A stretch of 63,210 nt of DNA, the filler included, from Klebsormidium nitens (taxonomy: Eukaryota; Plantae; Klebsormidiophyceae): the NCBI GenBank assembly GCA_000708835.1. It is 4 parts of 4 records of this genome, joined end to end, with 100 filler letters (N's around TTAATTAATTAA, not from the genome) between each part and the next. Parts side by side here need not be neighbours in the genome. Positions count along the whole stretch, not along the records: positions 14,933 to 28,030 come from DF238075.1; 3 more parts are not named here. One strand, 5' to 3'. Positions 16,351-22,400 of this stretch are shown here, in pieces. A program made the translations under genes and the position numbers. The notes below the pieces were generated by a model. That model saw only the letters and a list, made by a program, of their open reading frames with translations. It did not search any database and had not been told where the DNA came from. Positions within the stretch are counted from its first letter, which is position 1. Every line of letters begins with the position of its first letter.

Positions 16351-17799
16351 ATGGAGCCTCCGTCATCATCCCGAGACCTCAAGGAGCCTGCCAGCACCGT
16401 GCTGCTCACTTCGACCACTCCAGCCGCCTCAGCCGCTCTACACGAGTTCTTCACGGCGGGACAAGCGGTGCGGAGCTACGCTGCTGTCCAATTCAAAGGC
16501 CCAACTCCAACCTTCGATGACATCAAGAGCGTCCCAGCGGCCCTCCCACCTCTCCCAAATGCAGGCGGCGTGCGTGGAGGGCGGGCTTCATATGCCGCTC
16601 AGCAAGGACTCGATGAGTTCTTCTTTGACTACGGGCTGGCCTTCAGCCTGCGGCAGACAGAAGCCTTTGCTCGGAGCGGGTTTGGCACCGCCTGCATGGG
16701 CAGCACGTGCCATGGGAAGAACCCAATCTACGTCCGAGGTCAAGAGCCTTTCATCTGGGAACAAAAGCGCAACAGAGGTGGGGCGGTCATCTGTTCGGGC
16801 GCTGGTGGGCATCTCCTGTGCCTTCGTTGTGTTGAGGCCGAGTACGTCGGAGGACGGCCCTTTGTATCAAAGAAGACCGGATGCGCCATCCCTCAAGGGG
16901 GCCTGTTCACCAAAATCGAGGTCTTTCCTGAGAGAAAGGAGCTGTGCCTGGCACGATCAGGGGAGGCGGCTACAGAGGGTGGGTGTCAGTTCTTCGTCCA
17001 GCGAAGAGACCTCGCTCCTTGCCCATATTGCACCGAGCCAAAGGCGACTTCGAAGCGGGGGGTCAAGAGGGGGCTTGAAGAGGGGCCGACACCTTTAGAG
17101 CTTGGGGCGATGGCCATCCTAGCAGAGCTCGCACGGAGCAAGATTCCACCAATGGCCATTGCCCCTGGCCTCTTCTTGGTACCGCATCTGGCCTCGGACG
17201 GGCGCCTTTTGGACATCTCAGTAACGGACAAGGGGCTCGTGAACGTGCCTCGACTCGTGAGGATCGACCACACGGGAAAGTTTGTGTGCGACTGCGGGCA
17301 GAGAGCGTGCAAAGACCATGAGATGAGTCCCCTTGAGGATTCTCGAGTGATGCACGGCTGGTGGCAAGGGGGTGCCGCCGACTTCACCTCCTTCAATGAG
17401 AGTCGGTCCTTTGTGCACGAGGTCACAAGGGGGGGCATGCAGTCTGACTGGGTGTTGCCACTGGATCAGTGGGGGCGTGTTGGGGCGCCTCTCTTTGGGG
17501 TGGACGCAGAGGCGTGGGTTGGCGGTCCACAGCTTCGAGTCTTTGTCGTGTGTGATCGTGGAGAGCAGCCCGTAGTGTGCGTGCTAGGGGGGCAGAATAC
17601 GCACTGCAGCCACGTTGACTGTAGCGGGCCGGACCGGTGCCGACACCTCTTGAGGATGCTCTCAAAGTTGGCGACCCCTGGAGTTGAGGGGCCCGTTGCA
17701 GATGGCGCCCAGAGTGGGAAGGAGGGTTTGGCAAGGAGGTTCCGTGCAACGGGTTGCCGGGGTCGTAGCCCTTCTCGTGGGGGGAGAAGTAGCGCTTGA
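16351..17799 (+). CDS. Cys/His-rich protein with two SWIM-like Zn fingers; possible N-terminal part of a KDZ-type transposase
   Basis: Stop-free 482-aa ORF with CxxC motifs (CLRC, CPYC), FVCDCGQRACKDH and CSHVDCSGPDRCRH. It is preceded by a splice acceptor (tcaacag), so it may be an internal exon. The last ~20 codons are antisense to the helicase exon. Confidence 0.6.
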   Translation: MEPPSSSRDLKEPASTVLLTSTTPAASAALHEFFTAGQAVRSYAAVQFKGPTPTFDDIKSVPAALPPLPNAGGVRGGRASYAAQQGLDEFFFDYGLAFSLRQTEAFARSGFGTACMGSTCHGKNPIYVRGQEPFIWEQKRNRGGAVICSGAGGHLLCLRCVEAEYVGGRPFVSKKTGCAIPQGGLFTKIEVFPERKELCLARSGEAATEGGCQFFVQRRDLAPCPYCTEPKATSKRGVKRGLEEGPTPLELGAMAILAELARSKIPPMAIAPGLFLVPHLASDGRLLDISVTDKGLVNVPRLVRIDHTGKFVCDCGQRACKDHEMSPLEDSRVMHGWWQGGAADFTSFNESRSFVHEVTRGGMQSDWVLPLDQWGRVGAPLFGVDAEAWVGGPQLRVFVVCDRGEQPVVCVLGGQNTHCSHVDCSGPDRCRHLLRMLSKLATPGVEGPVADGAQSGKEGLARRFRATGCRGRSPSRGGRSSA

Positions 17800-20700: not shown

Positions 20701-22400
20701 GTCAGGTCTCAAAGAACATAGAACAAGCCTGATAATGCCTCCACTTAAGTTTGGGACTCGCCCCAAAACAGCTCCAAATCAGGCCCTGAGCAAAGGACAA
20801 GAGCAGCCTGACCACGGCCCCCAAACAGGCCCGAGCCATCACAAACAGCCTTCCTGCAATCCCAAATCTGCTTGACTACGGCCCCAAACCTAGCCCTGAA
20901 TCAGGCCCAGAGCAGAGCCACAAAATGAATGTCCCCAAGCCCTCCAGAACAGCTAGTGGACCTTTGAAGGTTGTTCAAAGTCCACAAGCTCATGAAGCAA
21001 CGGCAGTAGAAGCGGCAATCACAGATGCACACAGGAGTCTACTCGGCCAACTCTAAGAAAAGGGATTCTTCACGGCATCGTACAACGGGGGGCGCATGAA
21101 GCGGGCCTTCAAAATCACCCAGCTCAGACTGTTTGCTATCTTAGAAAGCCAACTTTCTCGAACTGATTTTGACCCCCAGCCTGAGCTAAGTATCAGCCAG
21201 TTTTGCTTGCGGTCCTCTCTCACCTTTCATGACGCTGAGGTTCTCTCGGAGGAAGGACAGCGGCAGCAGCACCCGGTCGGAGTACAGATGTTTCCTCTCG
21301 CTGTTCAGCGGCTGGCTGTCCCCAAAAGCTGCAGCAATCGGGAGCGGGAGCATGCCTAGGCGGATGGAGCGCGACCGAGAGGTCGTCTTGCAACTCTCCC
21401 CATAGCAGAGGTAGAGGATTTCGGCGCCCCGCCGCAGGAGCGCAAAGTTGTTGCTGTCGTGCACCCCTCCGCGCTGCGTCGCAAAGTAGGGGCACGCCAC
21501 GCGGCCCCCAGGCCCGTTCCTGAAGTCGTAGATGACCCCAACTCCGGTTGAAGACGGCTTGGCACCGCTGAAAACGGAGGTGTTGTCCCCCCATGTCAAC
21601 AGCAGCTTCTCGAGCGCGCTCACCACCTCCTTTTGGAGCTCGGGGGACGCAAGGTCCGGTTCAATAGATGCAGAGGCCGGCTCAGGCAAGTCTCCACCCC
21701 TCACTCCGCCCGCGCGTCTCTCCTCCCGCTCTTGCTTGTTCCAGATCGCCCGCAAGCTCGCCTGGCGGTTAAGGATTTCAATGAGCCAGCCGGGAAAAGG
21801 GGGCAATTCCGTGACGGGGGGAAGCTCTGGTTTTTCAATCATCTCGTAGCATAGCCTCGTGCCAGCCCCGTCCAAGTAGCAACTGCCCGGTGCGATCAGA
21901 CACCCTTTCTCTCCCCTCATATCGATGCCCACCTTCAACACCTTGCCGCTCTCCGGATCTTCACAATACAGCTTTGAGAAGCTTTTGACGAGGCCCGAAG
22001 ACAGGCCGGCCTCGATGCTCTTGCTTCGGGAGTAATACAGATGCAACCCGCCGCTGCCTGTCTGCACTGAGGGTGCTTCTGCGAGGCCGTGTGCGCGTTG
22101 TAGCGCCTCCCACGTCGCCAACCCGGAATCGTGGCGGTCGATGTCAAGCCCAAGGACGTCGCAGTTACTCGTGTTGATGGCCAGGCTGTTGTGGCTTTGG
22201 CGCACAGTCCCACTGGCAAGGGTGGTGGTCTGCCAGCTTGGTGGGAACTTGACAGACTTTCCGCCCTTCTCCTGGTCTGCTCCGCCCTTCTCCTGATCTG
22301 CTCCGGCCTTCTTCGGGTCTTTTTTGCCCTTCTCTGGATCCCACGTGATGTCGACCGAGAAGACGGGGTACCCCAGCTCACGGAAGCGGTCTGCTGCCAT
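17740..22400 (-). pseudogene. Spliced Prim-Pol (bifunctional primase-polymerase) + Zn module + D5/SF3 helicase (phage P4/NCLDV-like primase-helicase); one premature stop, 3'-truncated
   Basis: Exons 22400-21224, 20407-19884, 19470-19291, 18934-18769, 18250-18102, 17884-~17740, with compatible phases. Prim-Pol motifs: LDID, QTGSGGLHLYY, IDMRGEKGCLIAPGS. Zn-like module: CPYF..HDSNNF..C..C. D5_N: DVGCAIILERLY..YWTGRFW and NGVIDLRSG..HP. Walker A GEGSAGKS, Walker B LAVVEE, then KKLTGSDIITARPLF and LILCTNYLP..RRRL. In-frame TAG at 20292-20294. Further phase-0 exons probably lie upstream (about 23601-23483 and 24130-23890). Confidence 0.85.
18375..18690. repeat. Intronic minisatellite (about 35-40-bp unit, 8-9 copies)
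   Basis: Recurrent core gcgcaaggtcggccaggc within a helicase-gene intron. Confidence 0.85.

What the first reader, a model, noticed from the sequence alone, without database searches (positions are those of the whole stretch)
16351..22400. Spliced virus-like primase-helicase joined tail-to-tail with a SWIM/KDZ-like ORF: candidate self-replicating DNA transposon
Seen: a Prim-Pol + Zn + D5/SF3 helicase gene with at least five spliceosomal introns converges on a 482-aa Cys-rich SWIM-like ORF, on a 13-kb contig bounded by gaps at both ends. Known: Prim-Pol/D5 fusions are replication proteins of phages, plasmids, Polinton-like viruses and NCLDVs. SWIM fingers precede the CxC/DDE core in KDZ transposases, as in the copy at 54-60 kb. 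No capsid, packaging ATPase or pPolB is visible in this contig. Inference: the full-length parent may be a large transposon coupling a KDZ-type transposase to its own primase-helicase, a self-synthesising element I cannot match to a named class. The alternative is an old, intron-invaded endogenous viral fragment.
Basis: partly seen in the sequence, partly recalled or inferred. Interest (0 to 1): 0.85.

Follow-up and report, generated by a model that had tools for sequence, protein, structure and literature searches.

The report
Algal transposon fused to virus-like primase-helicase
In the alga Klebsormidium nitens, the front part of a jumping-gene enzyme and a spliced, transcribed but broken virus-like DNA-copying gene meet at one shared break, likely a deletion that fused two neighbouring repeats, although they could instead be the remains of one new self-copying transposon.

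Summary
The contig is Klebsormidium nitens scaffold KFL_01126; its 'gaps' are artificial linkers. The minus-strand Prim-Pol/Zn-finger/D5 gene is spliced at 13 introns in RNA-type contigs of four studies, but carries an in-frame stop and lacks its last ~150 codons. The 482-aa ORF is the N-terminal third of a CxC4-type KDZ transposase family with dozens of loci (full-length member 1365 aa, D-D-E intact). Both genes end at one joint (17722-17741), bridged by DNA and RNA contigs: a deletion fusion, not two whole convergent genes. The D5 gene belongs to a multi-copy family with shared intron positions and mostly synonymous differences, with no capsid or other viral gene nearby. Against: none of three other D5 scaffolds is among the 55 contig lengths carrying KDZ pieces, two full-length KDZ copies lack an annotated D5 neighbour, and annotated D5 paralogues lack the primase. 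For: the anatomy fits an internally deleted two-gene transposon, and the fragmented assembly would hide linkage. Chance neighbours ~0.5; composite KDZ primase-helicase transposon ~0.33.

The parts
14933..28030 (.). Whole 13,098-bp scaffold (K. nitens KFL_01126), bounded by artificial linkers
   Evidence: P0033 = KFL_011260030, 100% identical, contig length 13098
15486..15550 (.). Multi-copy non-coding stretch, candidate outer end of the KDZ element (terminus not defined)
   Evidence: 5-6 other contigs lay at 15516, summed depth about 10x single copy; limits approximate
15881..16149 (+). Two 140-bp tandem units with internal palindromic arms upstream of the transposase ORF; candidate subterminal repeats
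   Evidence: related arrays in paralogous contigs, one with three units
16351..17799 (+). 482-aa ORF: N-terminal ~457 aa (16351-17721) of a CxC4-type KDZ transposase with two SWIM-like Cys/His clusters; lacks CxC4 and the whole DDE core
   Evidence: 84% to P0001, 63% to 1365-aa P0050; family assignment
17722..17741 (.). Joint where both homologies stop (at most 20 bp unassigned)
   Evidence: tblastn ends at 17721 and 17741; two paralogous DNA contigs leave at 17742 and continue the helicase frame; bridged with no differences by a 3857-bp DNA contig and by RNA contigs of four studies
17742..17884 (-). D5 exon 6, truncated (motif C, Arg finger); last ~151 codons absent from the window
18102..18250 (-). 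D5 exon 5 (Walker B)
18385..18664 (.). 37-bp minisatellite (7.5 copies) inside intron 4
18769..18934 (-). D5 exon 4 (Walker A)
19291..19470 (-). D5 exon 3
19884..20407 (-). D5 exon 2 (D5_N) with in-frame stop at 20294-20292
21224..22400 (-). Exon with Prim-Pol primase-polymerase (three catalytic motifs present) and C-H-C-C Zn finger
22906..27618 (-). Eight further spliced exons; frame open upstream, first in-frame Met at 24573; low-complexity N-terminus partly shared with paralogues
16023..17741 (-). Probable read-through of the D5 transcript antisense across the transposase fragment
   Evidence: single RNA contigs join D5 exons to 16023-16264 in four studies; strand and transcript unity not shown by contigs
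27639..28030 (.). Non-coding sequence upstream of the D5 transcript that is shared with at least one other locus
   Evidence: joints at 27639-27734, 27825-27843, 27993-27902 in paralogous contigs

Best explanation
This is a transcribed relic in which a cut-off KDZ transposase gene and a cut-off, stop-interrupted, 13-intron primase-helicase gene meet at one break, most likely because a KDZ transposon landed next to a copy of a separate, virus-derived primase-helicase repeat family and a later deletion removed both 3' ends. Shown: splicing, the stop, both truncations, the shared joint, both families being multi-copy. Inferred: a single deletion made the joint; the D5 gene came long ago from a phage- or virus-like element, gained introns once and then multiplied as DNA (shared intron positions, diverged intron sequences), probably inside some mobile element whose mobiliser is not identified; having lost its own terminator, its transcript now runs antisense through the transposase fragment. 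The locus would make at most a helicase-less primase-polymerase of about 620 aa and a DDE-less transposase N-terminus, so it cannot move or replicate by itself.
For: Joint and truncations. Splicing. KDZ pieces occur on 55 distinct contig lengths, 23 of them 20 kb or longer; of the four scaffolds with a long D5-family protein only this one is among them (1 of 4). Full-length transposases KFL_000040110 (514-kb scaffold) and KFL_007110040 (41.5 kb), and the closest relative KFL_008280030 (84%, 29.9 kb), have no D5-family protein of 509 aa or more on their scaffolds. None of 15 joints shown in paralogous DNA contigs links a KDZ part to a D5 part (9 more not shown). No inverted repeat pairs the two contig ends. 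The window's helicase has the longest end branch of the three K. nitens copies (0.098 vs 0.038 and 0), as for relaxed selection.
Against: Loss of both 3' ends with both outer flanks kept and repeated elsewhere is the textbook anatomy of an internally deleted two-gene DNA transposon. The D5 family needs a vehicle and this transposase is the only candidate seen. The linkage count is weak: two D5 scaffolds (10.8 and 11.5 kb) are hardly longer than the gene, many KDZ genes are partial at scaffold ends, only 4 long D5 proteins are annotated although contig depth suggests several-fold more copies, and each protein search scored only ~8000 candidates within a length window.
Confidence: 0.5

Rival explanations
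1. Internal-deletion derivative of one large (about 18-20 kb) KDZ transposon subfamily that carries a spliced primase-helicase as its second, convergent gene; the transposase would cut and paste, the primase-helicase would copy the element or fill gaps.
For: One joint removes both 3' ends; both outer flanks are repeated elsewhere; D5 family is multi-copy with conserved intron positions and 17 of 27 listed differences synonymous third-position changes; no viral hallmark gene in the contig; KDZ elements are known to carry cargo genes in some families and not others (PMC12730594); assembly fragmentation would hide linkage.
Against: No second linked copy found; full-length KDZ copies without annotated long D5 neighbour; three annotated D5 paralogues have no Prim-Pol domain and no paralogous contig covers 21925-22361 at 80% identity, so most copies may be helicase-only; no TIR or TSD found.
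Confidence: 0.33
2. Ordinary decayed fragment of an endogenous giant virus or Polinton-like virus into which a transposon inserted.
For: K. nitens holds several NCLDV insertions (PMC5294986 section 3.3); D5 primase-helicases are virus hallmarks; nearest non-algal relatives are phage/virus-like proteins at 27-34%.
Against: 13 spliced introns and transcripts in four studies, whereas endogenous viral genes mostly lack introns (PMC11244446, PMC10120064 passages); no other viral gene in 13 kb; poxvirus and ASFV D5 match far more weakly (E ~1e-6) than phage proteins (E ~1e-29); intron positions shared between paralogues imply amplification after intron gain.
Confidence: 0.07
3. A host-kept locus: it would supply a stand-alone primase-polymerase to helicase-only paralogues, or antisense RNA that silences the KDZ family (a Mu-killer-like role).
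For: Catalytic primase motifs and Zn finger intact upstream of the stop; paralogues complementary in domain content; spliced RNA in four studies running into the transposase fragment.
Against: The stop lies 906 nt upstream of the last exon junction, a likely decay signal; helicase exons still nearly intact, so the break is young; only about 3-4 KDZ copies are 80% or more alike; no orthologue seen outside this genome.
Confidence: 0.1

Closest known systems
KDZ (Kyakuja-Dileera-Zisupton) DNA transposons, CxC4-bearing type
   Same: Full-length family member has a Cys-rich N-terminus, a weak CxC4 match, D-D-E residues aligned with KDZ/CxC4 proteins; many dispersed copies; KDZ families are known to carry a second gene such as TET/JBP (PMC12730594, passages and section 3.2.1).
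   Different: This copy lacks CxC4 and DDE; termini and TSD undefined; no KDZ element with a primase-helicase was found in the searches made; Pfam KDZ does not hit P0050 itself.
AcademH and KolobokH helicase-carrying DNA transposons
   Same: DDE-type transposase plus a separate helicase gene (PMC10799480 and PMC10045372 passages).
   Different: Their helicases are DEAD/Helicase_C (SF2) type with no primase; here an SF3/D5 helicase fused to Prim-Pol; different transposase; linkage here unproven.
Prim-Pol/D5 (P4-like) primase-helicases of phages, plasmids, PLVs and NCLDVs
   Same: Domain order Prim-Pol, Zn finger, D5_N, SF3 with all motifs; 27-34% identity to such proteins.
   Different: 13 spliceosomal introns, long low-complexity N-terminus, multi-copy nuclear family restricted to K. 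nitens in the searches; no capsid or integrase of viral type; annotated paralogues lack the primase.
Polintons/PLVs, casposons, Teratorn (self-synthesising or virus-transposon composites)
   Same: Concept of a mobiliser joined to replication genes (PLVs with primase-helicase: PMC10120064 passages; casposons and Teratorn seen only as search listings).
   Different: No pPolB, capsid, rve/tyrosine integrase or Cas1; spliced genes.

Membership tests
KDZ transposon | DDE catalytic core of KDZ type in the family | tested here: met
   P0050 D745 (16 of 20 aligned rows), D1182 invariant, E1251 in 90% or more; 22 of 31 chosen relatives (of 115 hits) match Pfam KDZ and/or CxC4 at E<=1e-3; Atlas top clusters KDZ/CxC4 at 0.90
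KDZ transposon | DDE core present in this copy | tested here: not met
   Homology stops at 17721; no C-terminal match anywhere in the window
KDZ transposon | Cys-cluster (CxC) and SWIM-like N-terminal fingers | tested here: inconclusive
   CxC4 below Pfam cut-off in relatives (E 0.002-0.04); two conserved Cys/His clusters in the ORF but no Pfam SWIM hit; UniRef labels one paralogue SWIM-type
KDZ transposon | Defined termini with 7-8 bp TSD (TIRs in Zisupton, CA..TG without TIRs in Kyakuja) | not testable with these tools
KDZ transposon | Dispersed multi-copy family | tested here: met
   32 relatives of the ORF at 50-100% identity including the window's own; 55 distinct contig lengths
Composite transposase + primase-helicase element | Repeated linkage of the two genes in independent copies | tested here: inconclusive
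   1 of 4 long-D5 scaffolds (this one) shares a contig length with a KDZ piece; 0 of 15 shown joints; assembly too fragmented to decide
Composite transposase + primase-helicase element | Intact primase and helicase in one copy | tested here: not met
   This copy: stop plus truncation; P0034, P0035, P0036: no Prim-Pol in the annotated proteins; unannotated copies could not be read
Prim-Pol/D5 primase-helicase | Prim-Pol domain with catalytic motifs, Zn finger, D5_N, SF3 Walker A/B, motif C | tested here: met
   (read through with X at the stop)
Endogenous NCLDV / PLV / Polinton | Capsid, packaging ATPase, pPolB or viral integrase beside the helicase | tested here: not met
   None seen in the 13-kb scaffold, which is filled by the two genes; flanks beyond the scaffold unknown; intron and flank ORFs were not all scanned against Pfam
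Endogenous NCLDV / PLV / Polinton | Intron-poor, gene-dense viral region | tested here: not met
   13 introns spliced
Endogenous NCLDV / PLV / Polinton | D5 nests within a known viral clade | tested here: inconclusive
   16-row tree without named NCLDV/PLV references; K. nitens copies on a long branch, joined to one unnamed protein P0037 with a long-branch warning

The most novel reading that the evidence does not exclude
A subfamily of KDZ DNA transposons in Klebsormidium carries its own 13-intron, virus-derived primase-helicase as a convergent second gene: a capsid-less, polymerase-B-less, self-synthesising eukaryotic DDE transposon, of which this locus is an internally deleted copy.
Probability: 0.33. 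Interest if true: 0.82.

Novelty: new variant of a known kind. Interest (0 to 1): 0.5.

Why it matters
If the composite reading holds, a cut-and-paste transposon class would have acquired a viral replication enzyme and made it a spliced eukaryotic gene, a route to self-synthesis other than Polintons (pPolB) or Helitrons (HUH/Pif1), and testable at once in a contiguous genome of a model alga. Even under the plainer reading, K. nitens holds a multi-copy, intron-rich, transcribed family of phage-like D5 helicases under apparent purifying selection with no known vehicle or job, and a large KDZ family that I did not find described for this alga.

Tried and rejected
Scans for linked loci found no Klebsormidium-like DNA: metagenome contigs 0 confirmed of 162 and of 68 pattern matches, viral contigs 1 of 6 (a tailed-phage contig at 26%, L001), 0 of 22 and 0 of 2, genome contigs 0 of 29 and 0 of 40; a D5 alignment was too diverged to scan with. 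No listed run is on record as RNA; the four laid are RNA by guess, though their GT..AG joints are absent from the two DNA contig sets of this locus. Single-sequence AlphaFold of the primase exon gave pLDDT 38, unusable; no fold search was run. Folding of 15380-15620 was no better than shuffles (z -0.37). Rejected: assembly chimera at the joint (bridged by DNA and RNA contigs; the DNA run may be the assembly's own source); RNA editing of the stop (no other letter); a D5 3' remainder beyond the transposon (best hits E>=0.29); kinship with the 54-60 kb element. A variant genetic code was not tested with a tool; paralogues have Glu at that site and the long ORFs read openly with the standard code. 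The supplement of PMC5294986 held no searchable text on this alga: its Figure S3/S5 could bear on whether these D5 genes were seen before. Iyer et al. 2014 and Kojima 2020 (AcademH) were not held.
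Full report
Setting. The window is four pieces joined by N44-TTAATTAATTAA-N44 linkers. The finding lies on piece 14933-28030, which encodes P0033 = KFL_011260030 of Klebsormidium nitens letter for letter on a 13,098-bp scaffold. 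No whole genome was held, so linkage had to be judged from named protein records and from contigs of sequencing runs.

The primase-helicase gene. On the - strand, exon 22400-21224 matches Prim-Pol (E 4e-13) and later exons match D5_N and DUF5906 weakly on their own; paralogues P0034 and P0036 match both above cut-off. Read through with X at the stop, the protein has the three primase motifs, a C-H-C-C Zn finger, Walker A, Walker B, motif C and the Arg finger. Contigs of four runs from four studies (RNA by the tool's guess; 4 of 24 listed runs laid) skip all five introns (intron 1 in 3 of 4 runs) and eight more upstream, all GT..AG. An in-frame TAG at 20294-20292 stands where three paralogues have Glu; the RNA contigs show no other letter. 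It lies 906 nt upstream of the last junction. Homology ends at 17741-17742; paralogues continue 151 residues, and two paralogous DNA contigs leave the window at 17742 in the continuing helicase frame, so the cut is inside an exon.

The ORF. 16351-17799 has no Pfam hit but 32 relatives at 50-100% identity, all named ones from K. nitens. The closest, P0001 (84%), aligns to 17721 and goes on. A full-length member, P0050 = KFL_000040110, is 1365 aa. Its Atlas neighbours are KDZ/CxC4 clusters (0.90, 194-197 shared features). A phmmer search with its C-terminal 729 residues gave 115 hits; 22 of the 31 that I scanned match Pfam KDZ and/or CxC4, and D745, D1182 and E1251 align with their acidic triad. 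P0050 itself has only a sub-threshold CxC4 match. The ORF is therefore the N-terminal third of a CxC4-type KDZ transposase, without the catalytic core. Its two Cys/His clusters are SWIM-like but not Pfam SWIM.

The joint. Both homologies stop within 20 bp (17722-17741). A 3857-bp DNA contig (possibly from the assembly's own reads) and RNA contigs of four studies bridge it without differences. No remainder of either gene is elsewhere in the window. The simplest cause is one deletion. The same RNA contigs run on to 16023-16264, which suggests antisense read-through over the transposase fragment; contigs do not show strand.

The D5 family. Four long D5-family proteins are annotated, all in K. nitens, on scaffolds of 10.8-18.1 kb, 65-73% identical to this copy. 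In two DNA contig sets of one sample laid at 80%, summed depth over helicase exons is about 3.5 to 21 times single-copy depth (the tool warns that this is no true copy number). Paralogous contigs skip at the same intron positions with other intron letters, so the family multiplied as DNA after intron gain. Of the 40 differences shown (548 not shown) I used the 36 in coding parts; 17 of the 27 in D5 are synonymous third-position changes (p 0.0015 against one third), a small and selected sample. The three annotated paralogues lack Prim-Pol: their alignment jumps from the start of the domain to the Zn finger, and depth over 21925-22361 is single-copy; deletion, divergence and mis-annotation cannot be told apart. 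Outside the alga the best relatives are 27-34% identical phage/virus-like proteins; pox and ASFV D5 match only at E~1e-6. A 16-row tree puts the algal copies on a long branch next to unnamed P0037, with a long-branch warning and without named viral references (P0035 and P0038 left out for lack of the helicase region or similarity).

Linkage test. KDZ-family pieces occur on 55 distinct contig lengths (23 of 20 kb or more); of four long-D5 scaffolds only this one is among them. Two full-length transposases (514-kb and 41.5-kb scaffolds) and the 84% relative (29.9 kb) have no D5-family protein of 509 aa or more on their scaffolds. No shown joint of a paralogous contig links the two genes (0 of 15 shown, 9 hidden), and no TIR pairs the contig ends. 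These results count against an obligate link, but weakly against a D5-carrying subfamily, because two D5 scaffolds are barely longer than the gene, many KDZ genes are partial at scaffold ends, and the searches were capped. For the composite: the joint anatomy, repeated sequence at both outer flanks (15516, 15881-16149, 27639-27993), and the need for a vehicle.

Known systems. KDZ elements carry cargo genes in some families (PMC12730594: passages and section 3.2.1). AcademH and KolobokH carry SF2-type helicases (PMC10799480, PMC10045372: passages). K. nitens has NCLDV insertions (PMC5294986: passages and section 3.3; its D5 cell for this alga is blank in the text version), and endogenous viral genes are mostly intronless (PMC11244446, PMC10120064: passages). 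I found no report of a KDZ or other DDE transposon with an SF3 primase-helicase in ten searches of the held library; subscription papers and Repbase were not searched. The Mu-killer comparison and the anatomy of internal-deletion derivatives are recalled, not from a call. Earlier AI notes describe Mutator and Merlin-like elements with primase and SF3 helicase in other genomes; these are leads, not support.

Verdict. Real, well-supported relic; parent undecided. Chance neighbours fused by deletion 0.5; internally deleted composite KDZ primase-helicase transposon 0.33; host-kept role 0.1; ordinary viral fragment 0.07. Interest 0.5, because the bold reading is open, unusual and decidable with one genome search.

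Noticed in passing
window 5100-11054: Crypton-like tyrosine-recombinase element pieces: NDC10_II-like ORF (E 0.085) at 7613-7942 and a 605-aa repeat-rich ORF ending in GCR1_C (E 1e-11) at 9237-11054.
   Followed up: no
window 53879-59695 (-): A second, unrelated Cys-rich transposase-like gene with weak CxC4 (E 0.026) and KDZ-like motifs; no similarity to the family of this finding and no D5 nearby.
   Followed up: partly
window 14400-14832: Ty3/Gypsy integrase-tail-like reading frame at the end of the first scaffold; label recalled, not tested.
   Followed up: no
window 29998-33163, 40682-41335, 44571-48799: Ordinary host genes on the third scaffold: FtsJ/Spb1 rRNA methyltransferase, an FAD oxidoreductase, a CNNM/CorC transporter.
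   Followed up: no
proteins P0034, P0035, P0036: D5 paralogues appear to have lost the Prim-Pol domain while two keep an intact helicase; this copy has the reverse content.
   Followed up: partly
protein P0037 (unnamed Logan contig, 4230 bp): 985-aa protein with the same Prim-Pol, Zn finger, D5 order and the best whole-length match outside the alga (27%, E 6e-54); context unknown.
   Followed up: partly
window 25197-25266 and 26038-26108: Two upstream exons of the D5 transcript are 85% identical duplicates; alternative splice sites at 26669/26729.
   Followed up: no
window 15421-15465: GC-rich hairpin where the run contigs break, just outside the multi-copy stretch at 15516.
   Followed up: partly
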